Shown: positions 4,316 through 22,228, counted from the first letter of the stretch. The stretch: DNA of 30,769 nt from an uncultured Candidatus Saccharibacteria bacterium (GCA_964466215.1 CAYXRV010000001.1:1-30769); one strand, 5' to 3'. The notes: generated by a model not told the origin, from the sequence alone. Program-made: numbers and translations.

Positions 4316-5614
4316 ATGAAAATTCACTTTATCGGAATCGGCGGAATAGGCGTTTCAGGACTTGCTCAATATTATTTATCAAAGGGGCACATTGTCAGTG
4401 GGTCTGATTTGGTGTCGTCTGAAATTACAGAATTTTTAGAGGAAAAGGAGATTAAGATTACGATTGGCTCGCATTCAGAAAACAATTTAAGCAGAGATGC
4501 TAATTTGGTTATTTACAGTCCCGCGGTAAAGCCAGATAATCCAGAATACAAAAAAGCAAAAGAGTTGAATATTAAATTGCAAAGCTATCCCGAAGCCCTT
4601 GGAAATTTAACAAAACAATATTTTACAATTGCCGTTTCGGGCACTCATGGAAAAAGCACCACAACAGCAATGATTTCTCTTGTTTTGGAAAAATCGGGTC
4701 TTGACCCAACTGTTATTGTGGGCACAAAACTCAAAGAATTTGGCGATACAAATTTTAGAGCTGGTAAAAGTAAGATATTAGTAATAGAGGCAGATGAGCA
4801 TTTTGCTTCATTTTTGAATTATTGGCCAAAAATTATTGTTCTGACAAATATGGAAAAAGAGCACTTGGATTATTATAAAAATTTAAATAATATTAAAAAA
4901 ACCTACAAACAATACTTGAGCCATTTGGGCAAAGATGGTATTTTGGTAGCCAATAAAGAAGATAAAAACATCAATAAAATAGCAAAAAAGGGCAAACACG
5001 AGGTAACTTTTTACTCAATAAAACAAAAAGAATCAAAAAGATTGAAAAGAATTTTGAAAATACCGGGCAAACATAATGTTTATAATGCCTTGGCTGTTTT
5101 GACCGTGGCAAGAATTTTGGGAGTTACAGACAAAATATCTTTTGATGTTCTATCAAAATATAGAGGGTCGTGGAGAAGATTTGATTTAAAACAGAGGAGA
5201 GCTGGTGGCAAAAAAATTATAGTCATATCAGATTATGGTCATCATCCAACAGAAGTTTTGGCAACCCTAAGAGCCACAAGAGAAAAATATCCAAAGAAAA
5301 AAATCTGGTGTGTTTTTCAGCCGCATCAATATCAAAGAACATATTACTTGTTTAATAATTTTGTAAAAATATTCAGGTCGTTGGCGATAGACAACATTAT
5401 AATTGCCGATATTTATGACGTTGCCGGACGCGAAACAAAGAAAATAAATGCCGAAATAAGTTCAGAAAAATTAGTTAAAAAAATTGATAAAAATAATGTC
5501 AGATATTTTTTATTGTGCGACATAGAAAAACATATCAAAGAACATATTAAAACCGGAGAGGTTTTGATTATTATGGGTGCCGGCGATATTTATAAATTAG
5601 CCGATAAATTTTAA
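4316..5614 (+). CDS. murC: UDP-N-acetylmuramate--L-alanine ligase
   Basis: HFIGIGGIGVSGLA, GTHGKSTTT, EADE, DYGHHPTE, VFQPH and MGAGDI motifs. Confidence 0.93.
   Translation: MKIHFIGIGGIGVSGLAQYYLSKGHIVSGSDLVSSEITEFLEEKEIKITIGSHSENNLSRDANLVIYSPAVKPDNPEYKKAKELNIKLQSYPEALGNLTKQYFTIAVSGTHGKSTTTAMISLVLEKSGLDPTVIVGTKLKEFGDTNFRAGKSKILVIEADEHFASFLNYWPKIIVLTNMEKEHLDYYKNLNNIKKTYKQYLSHLGKDGILVANKEDKNINKIAKKGKHEVTFYSIKQKESKRLKRILKIPGKHNVYNALAVLTVARILGVTDKISFDVLSKYRGSWRRFDLKQRRAGGKKIIVISDYGHHPTEVLATLRATREKYPKKKIWCVFQPHQYQRTYYLFNNFVKIFRSLAIDNIIIADIYDVAGRETKKINAEISSEKLVKKIDKNNVRYFLLCDIEKHIKEHIKTGEVLIIMGAGDIYKLADKF
5510..5522 (+). repeat. 13-bp core copy (TTATTGTGCGACA) of the recurrent site, inside murC
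   Basis: Identical to the cores at 12671-12683 and 21162-21174 and to the reverse complement of 20163-20175. Confidence 0.55.
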
Positions 5615-5646
5615 AAATAAAAAAAGAGCTGACAAATGTCAGCTCT
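5613..5646 (-). terminator. Intrinsic terminator between murC and the convergent small ORF
   Basis: Stem AGAGCTGACA/TGTCAGCTCT (5625-5646) with an A-run on its left, i.e. a U-tract on the minus strand. Confidence 0.7.
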
Positions 5647-5663
5647 ATCTATCAAAGAGAATA

Positions 5664-5885
5664 TTAAATATCCTTAGGATAAGGTTTTTTATGACATCTG
5701 TTGCCAGATGTTATTTTCAAGGATAGTTTACTTCCGCCTGAATTAATTTTTGCTTTACAGCGATTACACACGTGTTTTCCTTTTGGTAGCATCTCAGTGC
5801 ATCTTTTGCCAGAATTAACACCTAAGCACTGGTTTGGCAATTCAACCTTTTCTGTCAATTGCGACTCCATTCTAAATCCTTTCAT
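5664..5885 (-). CDS. Small Cys-rich hypothetical protein, possible zinc finger (probable start ATG 5870)
   Basis: C-x8-C-x10-C-x2-C spacing plus a late C-H; AAGGA 6 nt before the second Met; own consensus promoter and terminator. Confidence 0.6.
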   Translation of the reverse strand: MKGFRMESQLTEKVELPNQCLGVNSGKRCTEMLPKGKHVCNRCKAKINSGGSKLSLKITSGNRCHKKPYPKDI

Positions 5886-5936
5886 AAAAGATTAACAAAG
5901 AACTAAAAAGTATTCCAATTTTTAGAATACTTTTCT

Positions 5937-5965
5937 ATTCTATTGATTTTATTGGTTATTGTCAA
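5937..5965 (-). promoter_or_regulatory. Sigma70-type promoter for the small Cys-rich ORF
   Basis: TTGACA (5965-5960), 17 nt, TAGAAT (5942-5937); a 10-bp inverted repeat AAAAGTATTC/GAATACTTTT (5906-5934) lies at the predicted start site. Confidence 0.65.
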
Positions 5966-6020
5966 TAGTATCGGCTAATCTTTAATTTTTTCGTAAAATA
6001 GGTATAATAAAATAAACAAT

Positions 6021-7220
6021 ATGATTAACACAAATCCCGACAAAATTAACGAAATATTAAGCAGGGGAGTGGAAGAAATTTTTGAAAAAGAAAATCTGCT
6101 TAAAAAGTTGCAATCAGGGGGACAATTAAGAATAAAGCACGGCATAGACCCCACCGGTCCTAAAATACACATAGGCAGGGCTTTTCAGTTTTGGAAATTA
6201 AGAGATTTTCAAGAACTGGGACACAAGGTGGTTTTGATTATTGGCGACTTTACAGCCCAGATAGGAGATGCTTCCGATAAGCAGGCAATGAGGAAAACTT
6301 TAACCGAAAAAGAAATAAAAAACAATATGAAAGATTATGCAAAACAAATCGGTAAAATTTTAGATATGAAGAAGGTTGAGTTGCACTATAATAGCGAATG
6401 GTTTTCTAAAATGAAAGTAAGAGATTTTGTGTCTTTGCAAATGTTATTTACGGCTCAGCAGACAATACAGAGAAGAAATTTTAAAGAAAGATGGGACGAA
6501 GGAAAACCAATCGGTCAGCACGAATTGGATTATCCTTTGTTTCAAGGATATGATTCAGTGATGATAAAAGCAGATATAGAAACCGGCGGCTCAGACCAGC
6601 TTTTTAATTTGCAAACAGGCAGAGAAATACAAAAAAGTTTTAACCAAAAACCTCAGGATATTATGATACTAAAAATGCTTTCGGGATTGGATGGCAGAAA
6701 AATGTCTACAAGTTGGGGTAATATAATAACAATTGTTGACGAGCCCAAAGATATGTATGGAAAAATAATGTCAATGAAAGATGAATTAATTGATGAATAT
6801 TTTGAGCTGGCCACCCGTTTGTCTAAAAATGAAATTAACGGTATCAAGAAATCTTTAAATAATCCGCGAAATATAAAAGCAAGGTTGGCAAAAGAAATTG
6901 TTACTTTGTATCACGGGAAAACTAAGGCGCAAAAAGCGGAAGAGGAATTCAATAAAGTTTTCAGAGATAGGCAAGCGCCGTCGGAAATAGAAATTTTTAA
7001 AACGGATGAAAAAGAATATCCTGTTTTAGATTTATTGTTTGATTCAAAAATTGTTTTGTCAAAAAATGAGGCAAAGAGATTAGTCGAAGGCGGAGCGGTA
7101 ACCACAGAAATTAATAACGAAAAAACAAAAATTGATGATTGGAAAAAAATGATTGAAATTCAAAATAATATGATAATTAAAGTCGGCAGAAAATTTATTA
7201 AAATTAAAAAAAATAATTAA
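6021..7220 (+). CDS. tyrS: Tyrosine--tRNA ligase
   Basis: GIDPTGPKIHIGR (HIGH-like), YPLFQGYD, GGSDQLFN, KMSTS (KMSKS-like), C-terminal S4 domain. Confidence 0.95.
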   Translation: MINTNPDKINEILSRGVEEIFEKENLLKKLQSGGQLRIKHGIDPTGPKIHIGRAFQFWKLRDFQELGHKVVLIIGDFTAQIGDASDKQAMRKTLTEKEIKNNMKDYAKQIGKILDMKKVELHYNSEWFSKMKVRDFVSLQMLFTAQQTIQRRNFKERWDEGKPIGQHELDYPLFQGYDSVMIKADIETGGSDQLFNLQTGREIQKSFNQKPQDIMILKMLSGLDGRKMSTSWGNIITIVDEPKDMYGKIMSMKDELIDEYFELATRLSKNEINGIKKSLNNPRNIKARLAKEIVTLYHGKTKAQKAEEEFNKVFRDRQAPSEIEIFKTDEKEYPVLDLLFDSKIVLSKNEAKRLVEGGAVTTEINNEKTKIDDWKKMIEIQNNMIIKVGRKFIKIKKNN

Positions 7221-7231
7221 TTTTTAAAATT

Positions 7232-7996
7232 ATGGCAGAAGAAAAAGGTAATTTGGCGTTAGCGATAGCCGTAGTCGTAGGATTTACGGCAGTTATCACT
7301 TTGGGGTTATATTTGATTTATGATAAATCATTAATTACATCATTGTTTACAAAAAAACAAGAAAAGCCAGTGGCTTGCGCTCAAGAAGCAAAAGTTTGCC
7401 CCGATGGGTCTTCTGTTGGCCGCACAGGCCCAAACTGTGAATTTGCAGATTGTCCTACAGTAAAACCACAAGATGAAACCGCTGGTTGGCAGACATATAA
7501 AAATGACCAATATGGATTTGAAATAAAATATCCAAAAAATTTTTCTGTAAACAAAAATTCTACAACAGATAATATAGTACTAGATTATGACAATTACGGA
7601 CAAAATTCTTTCTCTGTGAAAGTGAAAAGTTACACTGCATCTCTTGAGCAAAATGTAAAAAAATATGTAAAAGATAGCCAGAAAGCTAGCGCGTCGGCTG
7701 CAGCACCGTTAACAGTTACATATAAACCCTACATTGTTAGTAATCTGAATGGGTATTTAATAACAGAGCAATCTGGTGATGTTCCTGTAAATACATCTGT
7801 CACATTAAAAATTCAAAAAGAGAATAACATATTTAGTTTTAACTATTCATACCAAGGTTATATTTTACGAGAAAATCCATCAGATGTATTGGGCGGGCCT
7901 CCTATACCAGCAGGATTCCAAGATGAAGTTCAGGCAAAATTAAAAGCATATAATGAAATACAGACGATTATTTCTACTTTTAAATTTACGAAATAA
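7232..7996 (+). CDS. Membrane-anchored exported protein with a 4-Cys motif and a PsbP-like domain
   Basis: N-terminal TM helix; CAQEAKVCPDGSSVGRTGPNCEFADCP; WQTYKNDQYGFEIKYP...STFKF PsbP-like pattern. Confidence 0.6.
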   Translation: MAEEKGNLALAIAVVVGFTAVITLGLYLIYDKSLITSLFTKKQEKPVACAQEAKVCPDGSSVGRTGPNCEFADCPTVKPQDETAGWQTYKNDQYGFEIKYPKNFSVNKNSTTDNIVLDYDNYGQNSFSVKVKSYTASLEQNVKKYVKDSQKASASAAAPLTVTYKPYIVSNLNGYLITEQSGDVPVNTSVTLKIQKENNIFSFNYSYQGYILRENPSDVLGGPPIPAGFQDEVQAKLKAYNEIQTIISTFKFTK

Positions 7997-8005
7997 ATAA
8001 AAATT

Positions 8006-9445
8006 ATGCCTAGATTTTTAGTAAAAGACACGGCCAAACATATTGGAGAAAAGGTAAAAGTTGCCGGCTGGGTAAATAGTAGAAGGGCCCACGGCAAAAT
8101 TTTATTTATTGACCTCCGCGACAGAAGCGGAGTTTTGCAAGTGGTTTTTGTGCCCTCAAATAAAGAAGTTTATGAATTGGCTCAAAATTTAAGACCAGAA
8201 TGGGTGGTGGAAATTACGGGTCAAATTGTGAAAAGGCCGGAGCAAATGGTGAACCCAAAAATTGAAACAGGAGAAGTGGAGCTTTCAGTGGAGTCTTTAA
8301 ATGTCTTGGCAGAGGCGCAAACTTTGCCATTTTCAATTGATGAGACTGGTTATGAAATAAGCGAAGAGTTAAGAATGAAATACAGATATCTGGATTTAAG
8401 AAGAGAAAGATTAAAGAATAATCTTGTGGCTCGCAATATGGTTATTAGATTTATGAGAGATTTTTTAGATAAGGAAGGATTTGTTGAAATTGAAACTCCA
8501 ATGCTTACAAAATCAACGCCCGAAGGCTCAAGAGATTTTATTGTTCCTTCAAGATTGCATCCGGGCAGTTTTTACGCGCTTCCGCAGTCTCCTCAGCAGT
8601 ATAAACAGCTTTTGCAGGTTGCCGGCTTTGAAAGATATTTTCAGATAGCTCGCTGTTTAAGAGATGAAGACCCAAGAGGCGACCGCCAAACCGAGCATAC
8701 TCAACTGGATTTAGAAATGAGTTTTGTTGCAGAAGAAGATGTGATGAGCTTGATAGAAAGACTTTTTATAACTCTTATTAAAAATCTGTATCCAAATAAA
8801 AAGATACAGGAAATTCCTTTTCCAAGAATGAGCTATAAAGAAGTAATGAAAAAATATCATTCAGACAAACCGGATATTCGTAAAGATAAGTCAGACTCAA
8901 ATCTTTTGGCATTTTGTTGGGTAGTCGATTTTCCATTTTTTGAAAAAAACGATGAGGGCAAGTGGACGTTTACCCATAATCCTTTTTCTGCGGCAAAGCC
9001 AGAATTTAGAGAAGATTTAATAAATAAAAAAAATATAGAAAATATTTTAACCACGCAATATGATATCGTGCTAAACGGTTCAGAGGTAGGTGGAGGAAGT
9101 ATAAGAAATCACAAATCAGAAGCCATAGAGGCAGTATTTGAAATAATGGGTTGCAAGAAAGAAGAGATAAAAGAAAAATTCGGCCATATGCTGGAAGCCT
9201 TCACCTACGGCGCTCCGCCTCATGGAGGTATTGCTCCTGGCATTGATAGACTTTTGTCTATTTTGCATTCGGAGCCAAATATCAGAGAGGTGATTGCTTT
9301 TCCAAAAACGGGAGACGGGAGAGATTTAATGATGGGAGCCCCTGCGGAAGTTTATCAGAAACAATTAAAGGAACTGCATATAAAAGTTGACCGCGTTAAA
9401 TCTGAAAAGTCAAAAAAACCAGTCAAGAAAATAACAAAAAAATAG
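8006..9445 (+). CDS. aspS: Aspartate--tRNA ligase (bacterial type, short, no GAD insertion)
   Basis: OB-fold FIDLRDRSG, motif 1 EIETPML, ALPQSPQQYKQ, motif 2 RCLRDED, motif 3 PPHGGIAPGIDR. Confidence 0.93.
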   Translation: MPRFLVKDTAKHIGEKVKVAGWVNSRRAHGKILFIDLRDRSGVLQVVFVPSNKEVYELAQNLRPEWVVEITGQIVKRPEQMVNPKIETGEVELSVESLNVLAEAQTLPFSIDETGYEISEELRMKYRYLDLRRERLKNNLVARNMVIRFMRDFLDKEGFVEIETPMLTKSTPEGSRDFIVPSRLHPGSFYALPQSPQQYKQLLQVAGFERYFQIARCLRDEDPRGDRQTEHTQLDLEMSFVAEEDVMSLIERLFITLIKNLYPNKKIQEIPFPRMSYKEVMKKYHSDKPDIRKDKSDSNLLAFCWVVDFPFFEKNDEGKWTFTHNPFSAAKPEFREDLINKKNIENILTTQYDIVLNGSEVGGGSIRNHKSEAIEAVFEIMGCKKEEIKEKFGHMLEAFTYGAPPHGGIAPGIDRLLSILHSEPNIREVIAFPKTGDGRDLMMGAPAEVYQKQLKELHIKVDRVKSEKSKKPVKKITKK

Positions 9446-9450
9446 ATATA

Positions 9451-10407: not shown

Positions 10408-10421
10408 TTTAAAAAATAATA

Positions 10422-11456: not shown

Positions 11457-11466
11457 AATTAAAAAT

Positions 11467-12429: not shown

Positions 12430-12443
12430 AGTCACGGTATAAT

Positions 12444-14957
12444 ATGAGACTAAAGCCCACCATTTTCGAATTTACTTCATATAAATTTGACCCTATTCAA
12501 AAAAGGATTTTTTTTAATTATAAAACCGAGTTTAAAGACGGAAACACTCTTTTTTTTACAGAAACCGTAGTTTTGCCAGAAATACCCAATGTTAAAGAAT
12601 TGCCACCGGGTCTTTTAGATAAAATATTTGAGGGGCTCCATTTAGTAATAGGTGTTAGCTATTGGAAATCTTATTGTGCGACAAAAATAAGAGTAAATTA
12701 TTCTTTGTCAAAGAGTGAATCGGATTTTTGGGATACAGTTTATAGAAAGGGTTTGGGTGAATTTTTTTATAAAAATAATCTTGATACCAAAATTTCTCCA
12801 AAATTTCCATTCAAAAAAAATGTAAAAACAAATTCTTACAAATTAGAAAAAAATAATAAATGTCTTGTCGGAATAAGCGGGGGAAAGGATTCAATAGTCG
12901 CAGTAGAGATTTTGAAAGAACAGAATTTTAATGCAACAGCTTTCTTCACCGAAACCCAAAATGAATCTAGTCTTGTTAATGCAATAATAAATATAACAGG
13001 AACAAAGTCCGTAAAAATAAGAAGAATTTTAGACGAAAAATTATTTGATTATAATAAATATGCAGGCCACGTTCCAGTTTCTGCAATATATGCATTTTTA
13101 AATATTCTTTGCGCAGTTTTGTATGAATATTCTTATTGTATAGTAGCCAATGAATACAGCAGTAATTTTGGCAACACAAAACATAAAGGTGAAGTTATTA
13201 ATCATCAGTGGAGCAAATCTTCGGAATTTGAAAACTTGTTTGTAAATTACGTTAAAAATTTTATAACCCCAGATGTTCATTATTTTTCTTTGTTGCGTCC
13301 GTTCTATGAAATTCGCATAGTGGAACTTTTTTCAAAATACAAAAAATATTTTTCTTATTTTTCCAGTTGTAATAAAAATTTTATAATTAATAAAAATGGA
13401 AATGAAGTTTTGTGGTGCGGAGAATGCCCAAAGTGCGTTTTTGTTTTTATCTTGTTGTCCGCTTTTTTGTCTAAAAAAGAATTAGTCAATATATTCAATA
13501 AAAATCTTTACGAAGAAAAAAAATTGATGCCATTGTTTAAAGATGTTTTGGGTTTTGGAAAAATAAAACCATTTGATTGCGTGGGAACTTTTCAAGAAGC
13601 AAGAGTGGCTCTATATCTGGCCTCTCCAAAGTTTAAAAATAATTTAATTATTAAAACATTTTTGTCAAAAATAAAAGAGCCAAAATCTTTAATAAAAGAG
13701 GTTTTTGGCGCTAATCTTGCTCCAAATATTCCCAGCCAGTTTAGATTTTCGGGAATAAAAAATGTTTTAATTTTAGGCTATGGCAAAGAAGGAGAAGTTA
13801 CTAAAAAATATATTCAAAAAAATTATCCTAAATTAGAAATTGGAATAGCCGATATTAAATTTAGCAAGAATTACTTAGATAAACAAAAAGATTATGATTT
13901 AGCCATAAAAAGCCCCGGGATTCCAAAAAGCTATGTTAAAATTAATCATACTACCGCTACAAATATATTTTTTGCAAAAATCAAACAATTAGGGAATAAA
14001 ACAATCGGCATTACTGGGAGCAAGGGCAAAAGCACAACAACGCAACTTATATATTCAATATTAAAAGAATCTGGAAAAGATGCAAGAATCTTGGGGAACA
14101 TCGGAAATCCAATGTTGCAAGCGTTGTTGGGCCCGATTAAAAAAGGTGAGATTTTTGTATTAGAGCTTTCCAGCTATCAATTAGATGATATTGATTTTTC
14201 GCCCAATATTGCAGTGATAACTAATTTATTTCAAGAACATATGGATTACCATTCCGGCGCTGAAAACTATTACTTGGCCAAACAGAATATAATTAATTTT
14301 CAAAGTCCAAACGATATATTTATTTATAATCCAAAATACAAAAAACTTGTTTTGTGGGCAAAAAAATCTCTTTCAAGAACAATTCTATTTCCAAATAATG
14401 TTCCATTAGAAAATTCTAAAATTCCTTTGATAGGTGGGCACAATAAAGAAAATATAAAAGCCGCGATTGCAGTAGCTAATATTTTTGGTGTATCGGATGC
14501 ACTAATTAAAAAAACAATTAAAAATTTTAAAAGTCTTCCTCATAGATTAGAATTTGTGGGAGAATTTTACGGAATTAAATTCTATGACGATGGCAGCTCA
14601 ACAAATCCAGAATCGGCAATATTGGCGATTAGGGCTCTTAAAAATATTGATACAATTTTTCTCGGCGGGGAAGATAGAGGTTATGATTTTTCGCAATTGG
14701 AGAAAACAATTAAAAAGTATAAAATAAGAAATATAGTGTTATTTCCAGATAGCGGAAATAAAATTTTAAAATCCAAAAAAAATTTTAACATACTATATAC
14801 TTCCAAAATGAAAAAAGCGGTTGATTTTGCTTATAAAAATACTAAAAAAGGTAAAATATGTTTACTGTCAGGAGCGGCTCCAAGCTATTCTTTGTGGAAA
14901 AATTTTGGAGAAAAAGGAGATCAATTCCAACAAGCAGTTAATGAATTTTTTGAATAA
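12444..14957 (+). CDS. murL-murD: Fusion of MurL (UDP-MurNAc-L-Ala-L-Glu epimerase) and a MurD-type ligase
   Basis: N-half: GVSYWK, PP-loop SGGKDS, NHQWSKS, FSSCN, WCGECPKC. C-half: GITGSKGKSTT, LELSSYQL, HMDYH, LPHRLE, LLSGAAPSY. Confidence 0.8.
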   Translation: MRLKPTIFEFTSYKFDPIQKRIFFNYKTEFKDGNTLFFTETVVLPEIPNVKELPPGLLDKIFEGLHLVIGVSYWKSYCATKIRVNYSLSKSESDFWDTVYRKGLGEFFYKNNLDTKISPKFPFKKNVKTNSYKLEKNNKCLVGISGGKDSIVAVEILKEQNFNATAFFTETQNESSLVNAIINITGTKSVKIRRILDEKLFDYNKYAGHVPVSAIYAFLNILCAVLYEYSYCIVANEYSSNFGNTKHKGEVINHQWSKSSEFENLFVNYVKNFITPDVHYFSLLRPFYEIRIVELFSKYKKYFSYFSSCNKNFIINKNGNEVLWCGECPKCVFVFILLSAFLSKKELVNIFNKNLYEEKKLMPLFKDVLGFGKIKPFDCVGTFQEARVALYLASPKFKNNLIIKTFLSKIKEPKSLIKEVFGANLAPNIPSQFRFSGIKNVLILGYGKEGEVTKKYIQKNYPKLEIGIADIKFSKNYLDKQKDYDLAIKSPGIPKSYVKINHTTATNIFFAKIKQLGNKTIGITGSKGKSTTTQLIYSILKESGKDARILGNIGNPMLQALLGPIKKGEIFVLELSSYQLDDIDFSPNIAVITNLFQEHMDYHSGAENYYLAKQNIINFQSPNDIFIYNPKYKKLVLWAKKSLSRTILFPNNVPLENSKIPLIGGHNKENIKAAIAVANIFGVSDALIKKTIKNFKSLPHRLEFVGEFYGIKFYDDGSSTNPESAILAIRALKNIDTIFLGGEDRGYDFSQLEKTIKKYKIRNIVLFPDSGNKILKSKKNFNILYTSKMKKAVDFAYKNTKKGKICLLSGAAPSYSLWKNFGEKGDQFQQAVNEFFE
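12667..12686 (+). repeat. 20-bp copy (AATCTTATTGTGCGACAAAA) of the recurrent site, inside the murL domain
   Basis: Identical to 21158-21177; 19 bp identical to the reverse complement of 20161-20179. Confidence 0.8.
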
Positions 14958-14958
14958 T

Positions 14959-16080
14959 ATGAGAAAACATCCAAATTATTATTTACTTTTTTTGGTAATT
15001 GTTCTAGTTGTTTTTGGCATTCTGTTTTTATCAACCCTTTCAGCGCCCGCATCTATCAAAAGTTTTGGCAACACAAACTATTATTTTATACATCAGCTGT
15101 ATTTGCTTTTGACTGGAATAATTTTGGCTGTAATCGCTTATAAATTACCATTAGATTATTTAAAAAAATTAGCGCCAATTTTATTATTTATTAATTTAGG
15201 GTTTTTAATATTTGCTCTTTTGCCAATTTTTGGCATTAAGTTTTGGGGAGCAAGACGCTGGATAAGCATAGGCATAGCCACTTTTCAGCCATCTGAAATG
15301 TTGAAAATTACAGCTGTTTTATATTTAAGCGCGCTGATTTCTAATAAATTATCGGAAAGTCGCAAAGGGGGATGGATATTTGTGGCAAAAAAAGGTTATC
15401 ATAATATAAAGTATGTATTTGCTCCTTTTTTAATTTTTTTGGCAATAATCTCGGCGCTTCTGTCTCTACAGCCAGATATTAGCACCTTAGGAATAATTGG
15501 ATTGACATTGGTTCTTGTATATTTTTTTGCCGGCACACCCGTTTGGAATACGATTTTTATATTATTCGGAGCCGTTGGCGGTTTGTTCGCTTTGATAAAA
15601 TTTGAGCCATACAGATTAGACCGTTGGTTAATTTTTTTGCATCCTGAGGCAGACCCTTTGGGCAAGGGATTCCAAATAAAACAATCTTTAATCGCTATCG
15701 GGTCGGGTGGATTTTTTGGAAAGGGCTGGGGAATGTCGGTTCAAAAATTTGGTTTTTTGCCACAGGCAATGGGAGATTCAATTTTTTCGATATTGGGCGA
15801 GGAAACTGGAATTATTGGTTGCTTGTTTGTGATTGCTCTTTTTTCATTTTTTTTATTTCTTGGAGTCAAAATCGCAAAATCGTCAAATGATAAATTTGCT
15901 CAATTGACTGCTATAGGAATTACTTTTTGGATATCGATTCAGGCATTTTTTAATATTGCCGCCAATTTGGGAATAGCGCCCTTGGCTGGCATTCCTTTGC
16001 CATTTTTTAGCTATGGCGGGTCGCATTTAATTACGGAGTTGATAGGAGTTGGAATGTTGCTTAATATATCTAAAACATGA
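14959..16080 (+). CDS. ftsW: SEDS peptidoglycan glycosyltransferase FtsW/RodA
   Basis: GARRWI, FQPSEMLK, QPD, GYQ-like GFQIKQSLIAIGSGG, LPQAMGDSIF, GIPLPFFSYGGS; start set at ATG 14959, 1 nt after the murD stop. Confidence 0.9.
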   Translation: MRKHPNYYLLFLVIVLVVFGILFLSTLSAPASIKSFGNTNYYFIHQLYLLLTGIILAVIAYKLPLDYLKKLAPILLFINLGFLIFALLPIFGIKFWGARRWISIGIATFQPSEMLKITAVLYLSALISNKLSESRKGGWIFVAKKGYHNIKYVFAPFLIFLAIISALLSLQPDISTLGIIGLTLVLVYFFAGTPVWNTIFILFGAVGGLFALIKFEPYRLDRWLIFLHPEADPLGKGFQIKQSLIAIGSGGFFGKGWGMSVQKFGFLPQAMGDSIFSILGEETGIIGCLFVIALFSFFLFLGVKIAKSSNDKFAQLTAIGITFWISIQAFFNIAANLGIAPLAGIPLPFFSYGGSHLITELIGVGMLLNISKT

Positions 16081-17192
16081 AAATATTATTTACGGGTGGT
16101 GGCACAGGAGGACATATTTTTCCGATAGTTGCCATTGCCAGAGAAATAAGAAGAATTTATCCAAAGAAAGATTTGGAGTTTTATTATTTGGGAGCGAAAG
16201 ATGAGTTTGGATTAATAATGTTAGGCCAGGAAGATTTTAAAATAAAAACAATAATATCGGGAAAAATCAGAAGATATTTCTCATACCAAAATATAATAGA
16301 TATTTTATTTAAAATACCTATTGGTTTTTTGCAAAGTATATTTTTACTTCTAGTAATTCGCCCTCAGTTGGTTTTTAGCAAAGGGGGGTCTGGGTCTATT
16401 TCTGTGACTTGGGGCGCAAGGTTTTTGAATATACCCGTATTTTTGCACGAATCGGACATTGTGCCCGGATTGTCTAACAGAGTCACTTCAAAATGGGCAA
16501 AAAAAATATTTGTGTCTTTTCCAAAAACAGAATATTTTGACCCCAAAAATACGATTTTAGTTGGAAACCCAATAAGAAAAGAATTACTGAATGGCGACAA
16601 AAAAACGGCGGGGGATTTGTTTGATTTGACTTTTCAAAAACCGATAATTTTATTTATAGGAGGGTCTCAGGGAGCAGAAGCTCTTAATGATTTTGTTTTA
16701 AATATTTTAAACGACTTTTTGTCAGAGTTTGAATTAATCCATATTTGCGGCAGAAATAATATAGAAGAAGTGGAGGCAGAATCTTTGGTGGTAATCAATA
16801 AAGATTTAGCAAAATATTACCATGTTGTAGGTTTTTTGGACGAAGAAAAAATGAAGCATGCCTATAAAGCCGCAGACTTCGTGGTATCTCGCTCGGGTTC
16901 AGGATCTATTTTTGAATTGGCGGCCATGGGGAAGCCAAGCATTTTGGTTCCATTGCCTTCGGCTGCGGCCGACCATCAGGCAAAAAATGCTTACGTTTAT
17001 TCGCAAACAGGAGCGGCGCTGGTTGTAGAGCAAGACAATTTAACTCGTAATTTCTTTTTGGATGTGATTCACAATATATTTTTGCATCCGGATAAATTGG
17101 AAAAAATGAAAGAAGAAGCGCTGAGATTCTCAAAACCATTGGCGGCCAAAGCTATTGCCAGAGAAGTTCTGGAATATTTTGAATTGGAATAA
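16077..17192 (+). CDS. murG: Undecaprenyl-PP-MurNAc-pentapeptide GlcNAc transferase
   Basis: TGGGTGGHIFP, KGGSGS, HESD, GNPIR, GGSQGA, SRSGSG and HQAKNA motifs. Confidence 0.95.
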   Translation: MKILFTGGGTGGHIFPIVAIAREIRRIYPKKDLEFYYLGAKDEFGLIMLGQEDFKIKTIISGKIRRYFSYQNIIDILFKIPIGFLQSIFLLLVIRPQLVFSKGGSGSISVTWGARFLNIPVFLHESDIVPGLSNRVTSKWAKKIFVSFPKTEYFDPKNTILVGNPIRKELLNGDKKTAGDLFDLTFQKPIILFIGGSQGAEALNDFVLNILNDFLSEFELIHICGRNNIEEVEAESLVVINKDLAKYYHVVGFLDEEKMKHAYKAADFVVSRSGSGSIFELAAMGKPSILVPLPSAAADHQAKNAYVYSQTGAALVVEQDNLTRNFFLDVIHNIFLHPDKLEKMKEEALRFSKPLAAKAIAREVLEYFELE

Positions 17193-17196
17193 AAAT

Positions 17197-18732
17197 ATGA
17201 AAACAAAAGATAGTAAAATAAAAAAAATTCGCGTCAGAATAGCTCCGTCGCCAACAGGAGCGTTGCACATTGGCACAGCCAGAAGCGCGCTTTTCAATTA
17301 TTTGTTTGCAATGAAGAATAGGGGTATTTTTGTGTTGCGCATTGAGGATACGGATTTAGAAAGGTCTGACTTAAAATGGACGCAAGATATAATAGAAGAA
17401 TTAAAATGGCTTGGCATAGACTGGCATGAGGGTCCGGACATTGATGGCAAATATGGTCCATACAAACAATCGCAGAGATTGGATATTTATGAAAAATATA
17501 TTAGAAAACTTTTAGACGAGAATAAAGCCTATTATTGTTTTTGTTCAGAAGACGAATTGGAAGAAATGCGCCAGGAGCAGATGGTTAGGGGAGTAGCTCC
17601 TCATTATAACGGGAAATGCGCCAATCTGCCAAAAGAAGAGGTGAAAAAACTTTTAGACCAAAAAAAACCATCGGTAATAAGATTTAAAATTCAACATAAG
17701 AAAGTTAAATTCACAGATTTAGTTAGAGGAGAAATAGAGTTTAATGCGGGACTTTTGGGGGACATTGTTATTGCCAAAAATTTAAATACTCCTTTGTATA
17801 ATTTTGCTGTTGCGGTTGATGATCAAGAAATGCAAATAAGCCATGTTATTAGGGGAGAAGACCATCTCTCAAACACTCCAAAGCAGATTTTAATACAAGA
17901 AGCATTGGATTTTGACCAGCCAATATATGCCCATTTACCATTGATTTTAGCGCCAGACAGGACAAAACTCTCAAAAAGGCACGGAACCGTTTCTATCGCT
18001 GAATACAGAGAGCAAGGATATTTGCCAGAGGCTTTGGTAAACTTCATGGCGCTTTTGGGCTGGAATCCGGGCACAGAAAAAGAAGTATTTACTTTGTCGG
18101 CTTTGACTAAAGAGTTTTCTATGGAAAAAGTTCAGAAAGCGGGAGCCGTTTTAAACATTCAAAAACTAAATTTTATAAACGGTTTTTATATACGCGAGAA
18201 AGCAACTGAAAAACTAACAGAACTTTGTTTGCCGTATTTAATTTCCGCAAAATTAATTGAGGAGTACAGTGGTGGTTATAAAATTGTGGAAACAGGCCAA
18301 GAAATACTTTTGGCAACTCTGCAAAAAATTGTGGAGGCGTACAAATCAAGATTAAAAAAGTTGTCAGAGATTACGGAATTCACAGATTTCTTTTTTAAGG
18401 AAAAGTTAGATTATCAAAAAGAAATATTACAATGGCAACAGATGACAGATGAAGATATCAGGGAGTCGCTTTTGGTATCAGAAAGAAAATTATCTGAAAT
18501 AAAAAATTGGAATGCAAAAAACTTAGAAGAAGAATTAATTAAAGAAGCCGTAAAATTGAATTTGGAAAAAGGTTATCCGGAAAAAAACAGGGGATTTTTG
18601 TTGTGGCCGTTGAGAACTGCTTTGTCGGGCAAGCAGGCGTCGGCCAGTCCGTTTGAAATTGCCGATATTTTAGGCAAAGAAAAAACTTTGCAAAGGATTA
18701 ATGAGGCAATAGAAAATTTAAAATATGAATGA
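17197..18732 (+). CDS. gltX: Glutamate--tRNA ligase
   Basis: RIAPSPTGALHIG, LRIEDTD, HVIRGEDH, KLSKR; start moved to ATG 17197. Confidence 0.95.
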   Translation: MKTKDSKIKKIRVRIAPSPTGALHIGTARSALFNYLFAMKNRGIFVLRIEDTDLERSDLKWTQDIIEELKWLGIDWHEGPDIDGKYGPYKQSQRLDIYEKYIRKLLDENKAYYCFCSEDELEEMRQEQMVRGVAPHYNGKCANLPKEEVKKLLDQKKPSVIRFKIQHKKVKFTDLVRGEIEFNAGLLGDIVIAKNLNTPLYNFAVAVDDQEMQISHVIRGEDHLSNTPKQILIQEALDFDQPIYAHLPLILAPDRTKLSKRHGTVSIAEYREQGYLPEALVNFMALLGWNPGTEKEVFTLSALTKEFSMEKVQKAGAVLNIQKLNFINGFYIREKATEKLTELCLPYLISAKLIEEYSGGYKIVETGQEILLATLQKIVEAYKSRLKKLSEITEFTDFFFKEKLDYQKEILQWQQMTDEDIRESLLVSERKLSEIKNWNAKNLEEELIKEAVKLNLEKGYPEKNRGFLLWPLRTALSGKQASASPFEIADILGKEKTLQRINEAIENLKYE

Positions 18733-19030
18733 AAAAGGGTTTGTGAGAAATATTGTAATTATAATTATACTTTTAATAGTGGTGTTTTTGAGTCAGCAAA
18801 CATACTTTAATAAAATCGGCAGAAATCTCTATTTCCAGGCGCAAACACAGATTAAAACATATTGGGCAAACATCTACCCCGGAGCGAGTGGGGAAGTGGA
18901 AAAGAAAAGCGCAGTTTTACAACAAGAAATTAATAAACAAAAAAATAATATTGCGCAAAATATTTGGAATAAAATAAAAAATTATTTTGCCGGTATTTTT
19001 ACAAAAGTTTCCGGCACGCCCGTGCAGTAG
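18725..19030 (+). CDS. Hypothetical single-TM protein
   Basis: 101 aa, hydrophobic N-terminus, overlaps the gltX stop. Confidence 0.6.
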   Translation: MNEKGFVRNIVIIIILLIVVFLSQQTYFNKIGRNLYFQAQTQIKTYWANIYPGASGEVEKKSAVLQQEINKQKNNIAQNIWNKIKNYFAGIFTKVSGTPVQ

Positions 19031-19147
19031 GAGATGCCTTAACAGTGTCTTTGCTCTGTTGTAGTATTATATATAATGTCGCAAAATGTAGGTAAACCGA
19101 AGTAATATAGAGTATAATAGGGCACCAAGCGCCATAAAGCAAAAGTT

Positions 19148-20119
19148 ATGAAAAAGTCATCAAAACCATTAAAAGAACATTTGCACGATTTTTTAGATTA
19201 TTGTGAAGTTGAAAAAGGTTTGCGTAATAATACTCAGGAAAATTATAAAAAATATTTAGAAAAGTTTTTTTATTGGCTAAATGATACCAAAAATAGCTCT
19301 CTGCTTCCCCACCAACTGACATCCGAACACATCTGGACCTATAGATTATACCTTTCCCGCCAACCAAGCCCGGCTACGGGCAAACTGCTGTCTAAGGGTA
19401 CCCAAAACTACTATTTAATCGCTCTAAGGGCCCTTTTAGCCTATTTTGTGGCTAAAGACATACTTTCACTGCCCCCAGGCAAAATAACCCTTCCTAAGGC
19501 CGATAAAGCTCAAAAAACAGTAAAATTCCTTAGTTTAGAGCAGATTGGCAAACTTTTGGCCTCGGTTGAACCAAAAGACGCTATTTCCATCCGTGACAGG
19601 GCTATTTTGGAGAGCTTTTTTTCAACCGGTCTTAGAATCGCAGAATTAGTATCTTTGAATCTTGAGCAGTTTAACAGCTTAAAAGATAAAAAAGATATGG
19701 AGCTTGGAGTGATTGGAAAAGGAGGCAAACCGCGTGTTGTTTATTTTTCTGAACGCGCTTTAAGCTTCATAAAAAAATATCTCGAAATAAGAAATGGAAT
19801 AGAAAATGCAAACACCAAAGCCCTGTTTATAAACTTTCGTGATAAAAAAGGAAATGCAGATAACCGTCTTTCGCCAAGGTCAATTGAAAGAATGGTAAAA
19901 AAATATGCCTTGTTGTCGGGCATACCAATTTTCACAACTCCGCATACCTTGCGCCATAGTTATGCAACAGATTTATTGAACCAAGGAGTTGACTTGCGCA
20001 GTATTCAAGAATTTTTAGGCCACAGCAATATCGCCACCACCCAAATTTACACGCACGTGACAAACAAGCGTTTGCGCGATATTCATCACCAGTTTCACTC
20101 AGACCCAGATAAAAAATAA
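19148..20119 (+). CDS. XerC/XerD-family tyrosine recombinase
   Basis: N-terminal SAM-like domain; catalytic TGLRIAE, GKGGKPR, HTLRHSYAT, LGHS and TQIY (R-K-H-R-H-Y). Confidence 0.92.
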   Translation: MKKSSKPLKEHLHDFLDYCEVEKGLRNNTQENYKKYLEKFFYWLNDTKNSSLLPHQLTSEHIWTYRLYLSRQPSPATGKLLSKGTQNYYLIALRALLAYFVAKDILSLPPGKITLPKADKAQKTVKFLSLEQIGKLLASVEPKDAISIRDRAILESFFSTGLRIAELVSLNLEQFNSLKDKKDMELGVIGKGGKPRVVYFSERALSFIKKYLEIRNGIENANTKALFINFRDKKGNADNRLSPRSIERMVKKYALLSGIPIFTTPHTLRHSYATDLLNQGVDLRSIQEFLGHSNIATTQIYTHVTNKRLRDIHHQFHSDPDKK

Positions 20120-20160
20120 GAGGTTGTAAACATCGTTAATATTAATTTTATTTACCATAA

Positions 20161-20182
20161 TTTGTCGCACAATAAGATTATT
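20161..20182 (-). repeat. 22-bp site, left member of a perfect inverted pair
   Basis: TTTGTCGCACAATAAGATTATT is the exact reverse complement of 21155-21176. Confidence 0.85.
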
Positions 20183-20184
20183 GC

Positions 20185-20214
20185 AAAATAAAACCGCCAA
20201 TGTTGCTTGGCGGT
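20185..20214 (-). terminator. Intrinsic terminator of the 20229-20489 ORF
   Basis: ACCGCCAA/TTGGCGGT stem (20193-20214) with an A-rich left flank. Confidence 0.7.
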
Positions 20215-20228
20215 ATGCCTTGCTTGGT

Positions 20229-20489
20229 TTACCCTTTGAGAAATTCTGTGTCAATTCCACATGACAAAAGTTCGGCTTGAATGGTGGCGGGAAATGGTAC
20301 GCAGGTTTTATTAGTTTTTGATTCCATACGTCGTAAAATTTCGGCACTTAAATGAAAAATTTTTTTGCGCAGAATTCCACAAAGTCCCGTAGTATTTACC
20401 TGCGCTATTATTTGTACTAATTTTTTAATCAGTTTTTCATTGGACATTTCCGCTAATTCATTTATGAATTCTTCCAGATGATTTGTCAT
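20229..20489 (-). CDS. Small hypothetical protein
   Basis: 86 aa; GGAG 7 nt before ATG; own promoter and terminator. Confidence 0.65.
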   Translation of the reverse strand: MTNHLEEFINELAEMSNEKLIKKLVQIIAQVNTTGLCGILRKKIFHLSAEILRRMESKTNKTCVPFPATIQAELLSCGIDTEFLKG

Positions 20490-20534
20490 TGTTTTTTCTC
20501 CGGATAAAGTTTTGAGATGAAAGGTTCTGATTGT

Positions 20535-20563
20535 TTTATATCACAGTAATATTTAAATTTCAA
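20535..20563 (-). promoter_or_regulatory. Sigma70-type promoter for the 20229-20489 ORF
   Basis: TTGAAA (20563-20558), 17 nt, TATAAA (20540-20535) with extended TG. Confidence 0.6.
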
Positions 20564-20566
20564 CTA

Positions 20567-20595
20567 TTGTCGCACAATTAGATATTTAGTATAAT
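20567..20595 (+). promoter_or_regulatory. Promoter of the LAGLIDADG-like gene, overlapped by a degenerate copy of the recurrent site
   Basis: TTGTCG (20567-20572), 17 nt, TATAAT (20590-20595); 20567-20586 reads TTGTCGCACAATTAGATATT. Confidence 0.55.
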
Positions 20596-20619
20596 TAACT
20601 TGCGTTAAAATAATATATT

Positions 20620-21117
20620 ATGCCAGTAAAAAATAATATTAATATTCCGGCGTTAGTTAACAAAGAAGGATGCTTTGATTTGCAGTTTAGAAAAGACACA
20701 AGGAGCGAGCGAACCGGCGCGCCGACATATTACAGATGGAAAATTCAGTTTGTTGTTACCGGCCCAAAAGAAAAAGAGAAGATGTTTAAAATTGTTAAAG
20801 GTGTGATTGGTTGCGGAGATGTTTGCATCACAAAAGACCAGGCCAGATATTCGGTGCAAAAAATTGATGATATAAATAATATGGTTGTGCCTTTTTTTCG
20901 GAAAAATCAGCTGGCTGATAAAAAGAAAAGAGACTTTGAATTGTGGCAAAGAGCGGTTGATATTATATATAAAAATAAAGGCAAATATCTTGTAAAATGG
21001 AAAAAAAACGACCTACTCTCTTTAATTGAAATTCAAAAATCGGCGGCAAAATACAAAAATAAACCAAAACAGCCAAAATGGATAAAAATGGCGCAAGCGT
21101 TGGCTAAGACGCTTTAA
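20620..21117 (+). CDS. Free-standing, degenerate single-motif LAGLIDADG-fold protein
   Basis: IPALVNKEGCFDL aligns with the LAGxxDGEGxFxx motif; downstream GCG, ARYSV, VPFF and K-K-x-DFELW pattern of LAGLIDADG endonucleases. Confidence 0.7.
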   Translation: MPVKNNINIPALVNKEGCFDLQFRKDTRSERTGAPTYYRWKIQFVVTGPKEKEKMFKIVKGVIGCGDVCITKDQARYSVQKIDDINNMVVPFFRKNQLADKKKRDFELWQRAVDIIYKNKGKYLVKWKKNDLLSLIEIQKSAAKYKNKPKQPKWIKMAQALAKTL

Positions 21118-21154
21118 TTTAGCGCTCGCTTCCCTACTCCGGCGTGTTTCCTAT

Positions 21155-21176
21155 AATAATCTTATTGTGCGACAAA
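21155..21176 (+). repeat. 22-bp site, right member of the perfect inverted pair
   Basis: AATAATCTTATTGTGCGACAAA. Confidence 0.85.
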
Positions 21177-21178
21177 AC

Positions 21179-21204
21179 AAAACCGACAAAAATGTCGGTT
21201 TTTT
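21179..21204. terminator. Bidirectional intrinsic terminator between the LAGLIDADG-like gene and uppS
   Basis: AAAACCGACA-AAAA-TGTCGGTTTT-TT. Confidence 0.75.
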
Positions 21205-21212
21205 AATTTTAG

Positions 21213-21284: not shown

Positions 21285-21295
21285 TTTTTATATGA

Positions 21296-22124: not shown

Positions 22125-22142
22125 AATTTAAAGTAATCTACA

Positions 22143-22214: not shown

Positions 22215-22228
22215 TTAAATTTAAAAAT

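What the first reader, a model, noticed from the sequence alone, without database searches (positions are those of the whole stretch)
5510..21177. A ~20-bp asymmetric site recurs across the window, including inside essential CDSs
Seen: AATCTTATTGTGCGACAAA(A) at 12667-12686 (inside murL, codons KSYCATK), at 21158-21177 and reverse at 20161-20179. The 11-bp core ATTGTGCGACA also occurs in murC (5512-5522) and reverse at 20568-20578. One-mismatch variants lie at 19077-19087 (before xer) and 29685-29694 (TGTGCGATAA, before the GIY-YIG ATG). With ~33% GC the 11-mer is expected about 0.01 times per window (post hoc estimate); five exact copies are seen. Inference: a protein-bound chromosomal signal maintained even within coding sequence. 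Candidate roles are a fork-trap/segregation site (Ter/parS/matS-like), a recombination site, an operator, or a DNA uptake sequence (the Pasteurellaceae USS AAGTGCGGT shares GTGCG).
Basis: partly seen in the sequence, partly recalled or inferred. Interest (0 to 1): 0.8.

Follow-up and report, generated by a model that had tools for sequence, protein, structure and literature searches.

The report
Polar terminus sites tied to LAGLIDADG
The repeated word is a direction-giving chromosome signal that, across a whole family of ultra-small bacteria, points from both sides at the place where replication ends and persists only where a tamed homing-endonuclease-like gene sits at that spot, an arrangement that looks like a replication fork trap built from a protein family not known to do this.

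Summary
ATTGTGCGACA occurs 5 times in the window and 11 times in the 374-kb genome. It also occurs 5-37 times (median 16) in family genomes (Ca. Staskawiczbacteria) that carry one particular gene.

The sites are about 16 bp long and asymmetric (TTTT-ATTRTGCGACA-A). They lie almost always on the leading strand and concentrate around the replication terminus. They form two opposed groups with a single switch at the GC-skew maximum, beside xer and a 165-aa single-domain LAGLIDADG gene. The window itself contains that switch (about 19-21 kb).

Site number tracks the LAGLIDADG gene. Six of nine genomes without an intact copy hold 0-5 sites, although xer and its palindrome stay intact where I inspected them. 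One copy always forms the -35 of the LAGLIDADG promoter, as at tus/TerB and rtp. The catalytic acid is lost in about 10% of orthologs, whereas the strand residues next to it are invariant. Sites inside genes are held at synonymous positions.

Best reading: Ter-like polar sites read by a domesticated LAGLIDADG protein, forming a fork trap or other polar terminus barrier. Binding and fork arrest are inferred, not shown. The DNA-uptake reading is refuted.

Earlier notes of this scan saw the motif in other genomes and read it as Xer half-sites.

The parts
5508..5523 (+). Motif copy inside murC (left replichore, leading strand)
   Evidence: Exact 11-mer at 5512-5522. Exact in G002, which has the LAGLIDADG gene. 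Decayed by 2-3 substitutions in G003 and G001, which lack it.
12667..12686 (+). It is the innermost '+' site in this genome.
   Evidence: It lies at the orthologous position in 18 of 30 family orthologs. Codons TGT GCG ACA are used in 16 of 19 C-A-T orthologs, against about 3% expected from codon usage.
19074..19105 (.). Single-copy palindrome at the xer transcription start (AATGTCGC-N14-GCGACATT type; the right arm is degenerate here). It is a candidate dif or Xer site, not a member of the dispersed motif family.
   Evidence: It is conserved upstream of xer in the family, including LAGLIDADG-less G001, G003 and G064. In most loci it lies between the innermost + and - motif copies.
19148..20119 (+). 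Xer-type tyrosine recombinase gene
   Evidence: Pfam Phage_integrase, E 6e-39. The synteny xer - LAGLIDADG - uppS is conserved in 12 of 14 loci, and LAGLIDADG-uppS in all 14.
20161..20179 (-). Motif copy just downstream of xer, the first '-' site. It is the left arm of the perfect 19-bp inverted pair.
   Evidence: A '-' copy follows the xer stop in 7 of 10 loci with xer.
20229..20489 (-). 86-aa orphan ORF: variable cargo lying between motif copies
   Evidence: No Pfam match. No homolog in 40 relatives. Absent from the same position in G002.
20566..20595 (-). Operator-type motif copy that forms the -35 (TTGTCG, 20567-20572) and part of the 17-bp spacer of the LAGLIDADG promoter. The -10 TATAAT is at 20590-20595.
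   Evidence: The same geometry (TTGTCGCAYAAT, 17-bp spacer, TATAAT-like -10) occurs in 12 of 14 family loci.
20620..21117 (+). 165-aa single-domain LAGLIDADG protein, the proposed reader of the motif
   Evidence: Pfam LAGLIDADG_1. PDB sequence matches to I-OnuI/I-PanMI-type domains. AF2 model pLDDT 86; best folds are I-TnaI and I-CreI, TM 0.70-0.77. An intact ortholog is present in 62 of 74 family genomes, and motif number tracks it.
21158..21205 (+). Motif copy just downstream of the LAGLIDADG gene, followed by a terminator-like hairpin (21183-21205). Its orientation is the exception to the global polarity.
   Evidence: The same '+' copy after the gene occurs in G002 and G013.
19000..21000 (.). 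GC-skew sign change and convergence of gene orientation: the replication terminus lies inside the window
   Evidence: Cumulative GC skew of the window peaks at 19-21 kb. Genes from 4316 to 20119 are on +, and most genes from 21296 onward are on -.

Best explanation
The motif is the core of an asymmetric site of about 16 bp (TTTT-ATTRTGCGACA-A). It is a polar chromosomal signal of the replication terminus region in Ca. Staskawiczbacteria. Copies lie on the leading strand of both replichores, so they point at the terminus from both sides. They thin out with distance from it. Shown by the data: the polarity, the restriction to the terminus region, the selection at the DNA level inside genes, and the dependence of site maintenance on one gene. 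I read it as a domesticated homing-endonuclease relative that binds DNA without needing to cut it, and that represses its own promoter through the copy forming its -35. Most likely mechanism (inferred by analogy, not tested): the protein-site complexes are one-way barriers. They let a replication fork enter the terminus zone and hinder it from leaving, as Tus-Ter and RTP-Ter do. The polarity would come from the asymmetric site, bound more tightly on one side. xer and its palindrome (candidate dif) lie between the innermost opposed sites.
For: 1. Polarity and position. In ten relatives, each contig holding the LAGLIDADG gene shows one orientation switch, 0.1-14 kb from that gene, with interleaved orientations at the switch only in G012. 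Examples: G019 17 '+' then 5 '-'; G053 7 then 7; G052 7 then 10.
2. Terminus assignment. On the 738-kb contig of G023 the switch (194491|196089) coincides with the cumulative GC-skew maximum. All 13 exact sites are on the leading strand, and all lie within a 160-kb zone. dnaA lies roughly opposite, in G023 and in G053. The window's own skew peaks at 19-21 kb. The 6 G000 sites outside the window lie on the G-rich strand of their contigs.
3. Replication, not transcription. The orthologous copy in miaA is antisense to the gene in three genera. In G023, where miaA is on the lagging strand, its 1-mismatch version still follows replication direction.
4. Dependence on the LAGLIDADG gene. 62 genomes with an intact ortholog hold 5-37 sites (median 16). 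Nine without one hold 0, 2, 2, 3, 4, 5, 9, 16 and 23 (Fisher p 4e-6, not corrected for phylogeny). G001, G003 and G064 keep xer and its palindrome, lack the gene at the inspected locus, and hold 3, 4 and 0 sites. G041 has a pseudogene and 2 sites. The losses fall in at least 4 genera.
5. Resident gene. The gene sits directly beside uppS in all 14 loci, with xer upstream in 12.
6. Autoregulatory geometry. A motif copy provides the -35 at a fixed 17-bp spacing in 12 of 14 loci. Tus and RTP are autoregulated through a ter site in their own promoters (PMC10331603).
7. Catalysis dispensable. The catalytic acid is D/E in 121 of 134 homologs and S/N/G/Y/K in 13, while C18, F19, L21, Q22 and F23 are invariant.
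8. DNA-level selection. At the site in the murL-like gene, TGT GCG ACA is used in 16 of 19 orthologs against about 3% expected. In G069, G022 and G076 a second or shifted copy rewrites the protein to IVRH.
9. No Tus or RTP homolog in 5 genomes.
Against: No binding or fork-arrest data exist, so the link to the protein is correlative. G091 holds 23 sites but no detectable gene; an operator-like copy there is followed by GC-rich foreign-looking DNA. G003 keeps the site in the murL-like gene despite lacking the gene. In G000, G002, G013, G012 and a few loci, a '+' copy lies beyond '-' copies right at the gene. Two perfect barriers placed that way would enclose a stretch that no fork could replicate. 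The acid residue is still kept in 90% of orthologs, so some catalytic or metal-dependent role is possible. The core is odd-centred and only 5+5 bp palindromic, which is unlike the 22-bp even pseudo-palindromes of I-CreI-type dimers (own knowledge). With 14-37 sites there are more than in known traps. The motif resembles one arm of the xer-upstream palindrome (10 of 12), so Xer involvement is not excluded.
Confidence: 0.45

Rival explanations
1. The same polar sites, bound by the LAGLIDADG protein, do not stop replisomes. They act on another DNA motor or organiser at the terminus. They might unload or block SMC (like XerD/XDS or MatP/matS), or orient or halt FtsK on its way to dif (KOPS-like).
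For: Polarity towards the xer locus and restriction to the terminus zone fit a guide or roadblock for any translocase. In the terminus zone there is one site per 6-12 kb, which from my own knowledge is similar to E. coli KOPS density. Dedicated terminus systems of this kind exist (PMC11894783).
Against: FtsK with an intact gamma domain is present, so an ordinary KOPS reader exists. Yet the motif decays when only the LAGLIDADG gene is lost. matS and XDS are not known to need polarity (own knowledge; the XDS paper was not held).
Confidence: 0.25
2. The dispersed copies are Xer half-sites. They are read by the neighbouring tyrosine recombinase and serve SMC unloading (XDS-like) or bound swappable gene modules (pdif-module-like). 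The LAGLIDADG gene is only a passenger.
For: The motif matches the left arm plus spacer of the xer-upstream palindrome at 10 of 12 positions. Variable cargo genes lie between copies next to xer. Earlier notes of this scan read it this way.
Against: G064, G001 and G003 keep xer and an intact palindrome but hold 0-4 dispersed copies, and they lack the LAGLIDADG gene. The XerD-like arm is not conserved outside the genus. A full recombination site (two arms plus a central region) is absent from the dispersed copies. Most copies lie tens of kilobases from any module, many of them inside housekeeping genes.
Confidence: 0.1
3. The motif is the operator of an ordinary transcription-factor regulon (the LAGLIDADG protein or another factor), and its strand bias merely follows gene orientation.
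For: About half the copies are intergenic in genomes that are about 90% coding. One copy is a clear operator over the -35 of the LAGLIDADG promoter. Some copies lie just upstream of -35-like hexamers.
Against: Copies sit at no fixed distance from promoters. Many lie after stop codons, in convergent gaps, or deep inside genes. They are confined to 20-25% of the chromosome around the terminus. The copy in lagging-strand miaA follows replication direction, not transcription.
Confidence: 0.05
4. The copies are relics of a selfish element: target sites of an active homing endonuclease, or terminal inverted repeats of a small cassette that carries it.
For: Perfect 19-bp inverted copies bracket the 1-kb two-gene segment 20161-21177. 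G001 has a single copy at the empty xer-uppS junction. 90% of orthologs keep the catalytic acid.
Against: The gene is single-copy, lies beside uppS in all 14 loci across many genera, and diverges in step with its hosts. A host would lose, not conserve, 10-37 cleavable targets at synonymous positions. Selfish spread does not predict strict polarity about the terminus. Lineages without the catalytic acid keep the gene and the arrays: L046 is the G019 locus (26 sites) and L051 the G053 locus (15 sites).
Confidence: 0.05

Closest known systems
Tus-Ter replication fork trap (E. coli and relatives)
   Same: Asymmetric sites in two opposed groups flank the terminus, in both genic and intergenic positions.
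   Different: No Tus homolog. The proposed reader has a LAGLIDADG fold. There are 5-37 sites instead of about 10. Fork arrest is not demonstrated. The Tus mechanism involves a locked complex (abstract of PMC8707476), and nothing here suggests an equivalent.
RTP-Ter of Bacillus subtilis
   Same: A small dimeric protein whose polarity comes from an asymmetric composite site (strong and weak halves). The gene lies beside the innermost sites and is autoregulated (PMC10331603). This is the closer mechanistic analogy for a homodimeric LAGLIDADG protein on a half-symmetric site.
   Different: No RTP homolog. Unrelated fold. The site here is a single unit of about 16 bp, not two adjacent dimer sites.
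XerD/XDS (B. subtilis) and MatP/matS (E. coli) terminus organisers
   Same: Multiple specific sites are confined to the terminus region, and the motif resembles a Xer-site arm.
   Different: The sites here are strictly polar, and they decay when the LAGLIDADG gene is lost although xer remains. matS is a symmetric palindrome (own knowledge).
KOPS / FtsK-orienting polar sequences
   Same: They lie on the leading strand and point towards the dif region from both sides.
   Different: KOPS are 8-mers read by the FtsK gamma domain and are spread along the replichores (own knowledge). The site here is 11-16 bp, regional, and tied to another gene. FtsK with a gamma domain is present independently.
WhiA, and I-TevI autorepression (homing-endonuclease scaffolds reused as DNA-binding regulators)
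   Same: In WhiA a LAGLIDADG fold is kept by the host for sequence-specific DNA binding rather than homing (PMC3384342, PMC3781837). I-TevI, a homing endonuclease of another family, also represses its own promoter (own knowledge).
   Different: WhiA is a two-domain monomer with an added helix-turn-helix domain and acts as a transcription factor. The protein here is a bare I-CreI-sized single domain, with a polar array of sites at the terminus.
I-CreI / I-TnaI homodimeric LAGLIDADG homing endonucleases
   Same: Size (165 aa) and fold (TM 0.70-0.77). The LAGLIDADG_1 domain. Most orthologs keep the catalytic acid.
   Different: Not in an intron or intein. Fixed chromosomal position across genera. 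The acid is lost in about 10% of orthologs. Dozens of conserved genomic sites coexist with the gene.

Membership tests
Replication fork trap (Tus-Ter / RTP-Ter kind) | Asymmetric sites in two opposed orientation groups flanking the terminus | tested here: met
   One switch per genome in 10 genomes. In G023 the switch coincides with the GC-skew maximum, roughly opposite dnaA. The logo is asymmetric.
Replication fork trap (Tus-Ter / RTP-Ter kind) | Reader gene beside the innermost sites, with a site in its own promoter | tested here: met
The LAGLIDADG gene lies 0.1-14 kb from the switch. A motif copy forms its -35 in 12 of 14 loci.
Replication fork trap (Tus-Ter / RTP-Ter kind) | Protein homologous to Tus or RTP | tested here: not met
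   PF05472 and PF02334 are absent from 5 genomes; the E. coli and B. subtilis controls are positive.
Replication fork trap (Tus-Ter / RTP-Ter kind) | Specific binding of the protein to the sites, and orientation-dependent fork arrest | not testable with these tools
Replication fork trap (Tus-Ter / RTP-Ter kind) | dif between the innermost opposed sites | tested here: inconclusive
   A single-copy palindrome at the xer start lies between the innermost + and - copies. It is not proven to be dif, and a scan with the canonical dif consensus was uninformative.
LAGLIDADG homing endonucleases (the protein) | LAGLIDADG domain and fold | tested here: met
   Pfam, E 3.6e-10. PDB sequence hits down to E 4e-16. 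Fold match to I-TnaI and I-CreI.
LAGLIDADG homing endonucleases (the protein) | Invariant catalytic acid at the end of the motif | tested here: inconclusive
   D/E in 121 of 134 homologs and non-acidic in 13, while neighbouring residues are 99-100% conserved.
LAGLIDADG homing endonucleases (the protein) | Mobile context (intron, intein, or sporadic free-standing insertion) | tested here: not met
   Always beside uppS, in 14 of 14 loci. Single copy. Present in 62 of 74 family genomes.
DNA uptake sequences (DUS/USS) | Hundreds to thousands of copies dispersed genome-wide | tested here: not met
   11 copies in 374 kb. 14 copies on a 738-kb contig, 13 of them within 160 kb.
KOPS-type FtsK-orienting sequences | Short skewed words along whole replichores, read by the FtsK gamma domain | tested here: inconclusive
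   Polarity towards the terminus is met. However, the site is 11-16 bp, regional, and lost together with the LAGLIDADG gene while FtsK gamma persists in the family.
parS / matS | Symmetric palindromes without polarity; parS is origin-proximal | tested here: not met
   Sites are polar and asymmetric. There are no exact copies and only weak 1-mismatch matches near the skew minimum and dnaA of G023.
Xer half-sites (XDS-like or dif-module borders) | Maintained wherever the Xer recombinase and its site are maintained | tested here: not met
   G064, G001 and G003 keep xer and the palindrome but hold 0-4 copies.

The most novel reading that the evidence does not exclude
Ca. Staskawiczbacteria carry a third, independently evolved bacterial replication fork trap. 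A domesticated single-domain LAGLIDADG protein, largely freed from the need to cut DNA, binds 5-37 polar Ter-like sites that converge on xer and a candidate dif, and it represses its own gene through the innermost site. Fork stalling at these sites could also explain why gene content between them turns over quickly.
Probability: 0.35. Interest if true: 0.9.

Novelty: new variant of a known kind. Interest (0 to 1): 0.8.

Why it matters
Replication fork traps are known from only two unrelated proteins, Tus and RTP, in narrow bacterial groups, and why they exist is still debated (PMC10331603, PMC6549158). A third, convergent system would show that polar terminus barriers are a recurrent solution. 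Here it would sit in genome-reduced uncultivated bacteria and be built on a homing-endonuclease scaffold. It would add a new fate for domesticated selfish nucleases. It would also provide a small (165 aa), programmable-fold protein with a defined site of about 16 bp for testing how polarity arises. Even if the target motor is not the replisome, the motif is a ready marker of the terminus and of replichore orientation in fragmented genomes of this family. The natural gene losses accompanied by site decay form a clean comparative experiment.

Tried and rejected
- DNA uptake sequence: rejected on copy number and regional restriction.
- parS or another origin signal: rejected, because the sites surround the skew maximum, opposite dnaA.
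- The 86-aa ORF as the cognate regulator: rejected, because it is an orphan with no homolog in 40 relatives.
- An invertible segment or cassette driven by the 19-bp inverted pair: not pursued further. The same genes lie in a fixed order across genera, and the flanking copies belong to the genome-wide polar set.
- The XerD-arm-like TTATGGTAAAT next to the 20161 copy as the true dif: not conserved outside the genus.
- A scan with the canonical dif consensus: too many AT-rich chance hits to be informative.
- Co-variation of the G/A variant at motif position 4 with protein residues: no clear pattern. The A variant is mostly the promoter copy.
- The XDS paper (PMC7897262) is not held, so whether XDS sites are polar could not be checked.
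- The 29685 'variant': 3 mismatches over 13 bp, no support.

Full report
**Observation.** With one mismatch allowed the window has 6 matches against 0.33 expected, and none of 100 shuffles reaches 6. The genome holding the window is a 374-kb, 63-contig, 34.6% GC assembly. It has 11 exact copies, and every TGTGCGACA 9-mer lies in the full motif. Six of the 11 are intergenic. A logo from 103 sites in several genomes gives an asymmetric site of about 16 bp: a T-tract at -4 to -1, the core ATT(G/A)TGCGACA, then A at +11. The 19077 'variant' belongs to a different element (below), and the 29685 one has no support.

**Distribution.** Record titles place the relatives in Candidatus Staskawiczbacteria, Patescibacteria. 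The 11-mer is present in 24 of 24 sampled family genomes from 16 genera, while the backwards-read control is essentially absent. Other families of the order hold 0-4 copies. ATTATGCGACA is a second accepted form. In 74 family genomes at least 85% complete the two forms together occur 0-37 times. Some copies form tandem arrays at 11-34 bp spacing.

**Polarity and position.** In ten relatives with long contigs the copies form two orientation groups, with one switch on the contig that carries the LAGLIDADG gene:
- G019: 17 '+' then 5 '-'.
- G023: 6 then 7.
- G053 (a single 662-kb contig): 7 then 7.
- G052: 7 then 10.
- G058: 13 then 2.
- G012, G017, G018, G044 and G079 behave likewise; only G012 shows a few interleaved copies at the switch itself.

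I fetched the whole 737,971-bp contig of G023. Its cumulative GC skew peaks at 190-200 kb and bottoms at about 550 kb. Genes run co-directionally from minimum to maximum. The motif switch (194491|196089) sits at the maximum. All 13 exact copies are on the leading strand and lie between 159.7 and 319.8 kb, and the single ATTATG copy is also on the leading strand. dnaA lies at 578.6 kb in G023 and at 185.7 kb in G053, whose switch is near 471 kb. The switch is therefore the terminus.

The window's own cumulative skew peaks at 19-21 kb, where gene orientation converges. The six G000 copies outside the window all lie on the G-rich strand of their contigs. One orthologous copy, in miaA, is antisense to the gene in three genera. 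In G023, where miaA is on the lagging strand, its 1-mismatch version still follows replication direction. Polarity therefore follows replication rather than transcription.

**The gene at the switch.** Window 20620-21117 encodes a 165-aa LAGLIDADG_1 protein. Its sequence relatives are I-OnuI/I-PanMI-type domains. Its AF2 model (pLDDT 86) best matches the single-domain homodimeric enzymes I-TnaI and I-CreI. It is not a wandering element. In 14 of 14 loci it sits directly beside uppS, then L27 and pyrG, and xer lies upstream in 12. Variable small genes are inserted between motif copies. Orthologs at 48-90% identity occur in 62 of 74 family genomes.

In 12 of 14 loci the reverse complement of a motif copy (TTGTCGCAYAAT) provides the -35 hexamer TTGTCG at a fixed 17-bp distance from a TATAAT-like -10 of this gene. 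In the window this is 20567-20572 and 20590-20595. A protein bound there would shut off its own promoter. Tus and RTP are autoregulated in the same way, through a ter site in their promoters, and dif lies between the innermost ter sites (PMC10331603).

**Sites depend on the gene.** Genomes with an intact ortholog hold 5-37 sites (median 16, n = 62). The nine without one hold 0, 2, 2, 3, 4, 5, 9, 16 and 23 (Mann-Whitney p 4e-4; Fisher p 4e-6 for five sites or fewer; neither is corrected for relatedness).
- G001 and G003 belong to the window's own genus. There xer and uppS are 38-40 bp apart with no gene between them.
- In G064 the locus is intact without the gene, and xer and its palindrome are present.
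- G041 has a truncated copy with a stop codon.
- In G049 and G062 the flanking uppS gave no match either, so the locus may be unassembled.
- G091 remains unexplained: an operator-like copy is followed by GC-rich foreign-looking DNA.

At orthologous positions the decay is visible. The murC copy is exact in G000 and G002 but carries 2-3 substitutions in G003 and G001. A copy in the class II aminoacyl-tRNA synthetase gene is exact in G002, G013, G016 and G023, but changed in G001, including at synonymous positions.

**Catalysis.** The acidic residue ending the LAGLIDADG motif (E16 here) is D/E in 121 of 134 homologs and S/N/G/Y/K in 13. The following residues C18, F19, L21, Q22 and F23 are invariant. 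Lineages without the acid keep the gene, the operator and the arrays: the L046 locus is G019 (26 sites) and the L051 locus is G053 (15 sites). Cutting is therefore dispensable, but the 90% retention leaves room for a metal-dependent role.

**Selection inside genes.** In 30 of its orthologs, 18 carry the site at the same position. Where the protein reads C-A-T, the codons are TGT GCG ACA in 16 of 19, against about 3% expected from this genome's codon usage. Where the site is absent the residues vary freely. In G069, G022 and G076 a second or shifted copy rewrites the protein to IVRH.

**The xer-upstream palindrome.** The 19077 match is the left arm of a single-copy element of the form AATGTCGC-N14-GCGACATT. 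It starts just after a conserved promoter of xer, and its arms co-vary in the G019 lineage. It is intact in LAGLIDADG-less G001, G003 and G064. In most loci it lies between the innermost '+' and '-' motif copies. I take it as the candidate dif or Xer site, adjacent to xer as I recall for difSL/xerS (own knowledge). This is not proven, and a scan with the canonical dif consensus was uninformative. Its arm resembles the dispersed motif at 10 of 12 positions, which keeps a Xer connection open.

**Interpretation.** Shown: a family-wide, asymmetric site selected at the DNA level, arranged as two opposed leading-strand groups around the terminus, and maintained only where the LAGLIDADG gene is maintained. 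Inferred with fair confidence: the LAGLIDADG protein binds it and autoregulates. Inferred by analogy: the complexes act as one-way barriers forming a fork trap. No Tus or RTP homolog is present. FtsK with its gamma domain is present, so a KOPS reading would not explain the dependence on the LAGLIDADG gene. The main rival keeps the same reader but a different target motor (SMC or FtsK).

The main difficulty for a strict trap is the '+' copy just beyond the gene in G000, G002 and G013, with similar interleaving in G012.

I found no paper describing a LAGLIDADG-based terminus system or a fork trap in Patescibacteria. The closest reuse of this fold by a host is WhiA.

**Relation to earlier notes of this scan.** The motif and the gene were noted on other genomes of the family. 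One follow-up described a polar 'Xer-arm' motif pointing at xer, and another described gene modules bounded by half-sites. My results agree on polarity and terminus. They add the whole-chromosome skew test, the promoter geometry, the codon test and the gene-loss contrast.

Noticed in passing
window 21201-21288 and 22125-22232: Two copies of a roughly 90-110-bp element flank uppS. The same element matches many dispersed places in the same-genus genomes G001 and G002.
   Followed up: no
window 19074-19105: A single-copy palindrome lies at the xer transcription start. It is conserved across the family, including genomes without the LAGLIDADG gene, and its arms co-vary in one lineage. It is a candidate dif adjacent to xer.
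   Followed up: partly
window 20229-20489; L041-L053 between xer and uppS: Gene content between motif copies at the terminus varies even within a genus. The window has an 86-aa orphan, G002 has an extra 1 kb, and G023 has 4.5 kb of cargo. The borders usually fall at motif copies.
   Followed up: partly
L128 (G091:C14) 2600-3019: Directly after an operator-like motif copy downstream of xer, the sequence turns GC-rich (about 55% against a 35% background) and no LAGLIDADG gene is found. This could be a foreign insertion, a replacement, or a chimeric contig.
   Followed up: partly
L021 (G016:C2) 1309-1351; L024 (G016:C11) 870-959; G069 Mur-ligase (murL-like) ortholog: Tandem arrays of 2-3 motif copies at 11, 16, 19 and 34 bp spacing occur, some upstream of the LAGLIDADG gene and one inside a coding sequence.
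   Followed up: no
L016 (G013:C8) about 2450-2500; L017 (G013:C12) about 10250-10300: Perfect DnaA-box 9-mers (TTATCCACA / TGTGGATAA) lie 15-40 bp from motif copies at two loci of G013, and a near-perfect one lies at a third locus (L019). This may be chance.
   Followed up: no
G047:C19 9032-9577; G054:C16 13310-13861: In two genomes the LAGLIDADG ortholog matches in two pieces (about residues 2-105 and 95-164), suggesting a frameshift or a small insertion. Both genomes still hold 18-19 sites.
   Followed up: no
G040 (another family of the order) C8 41353-41871: A 42%-identical LAGLIDADG homolog with an internal TAG occurs outside the family, in the non-family genome with the most motif copies (4 + 2).
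   Followed up: no
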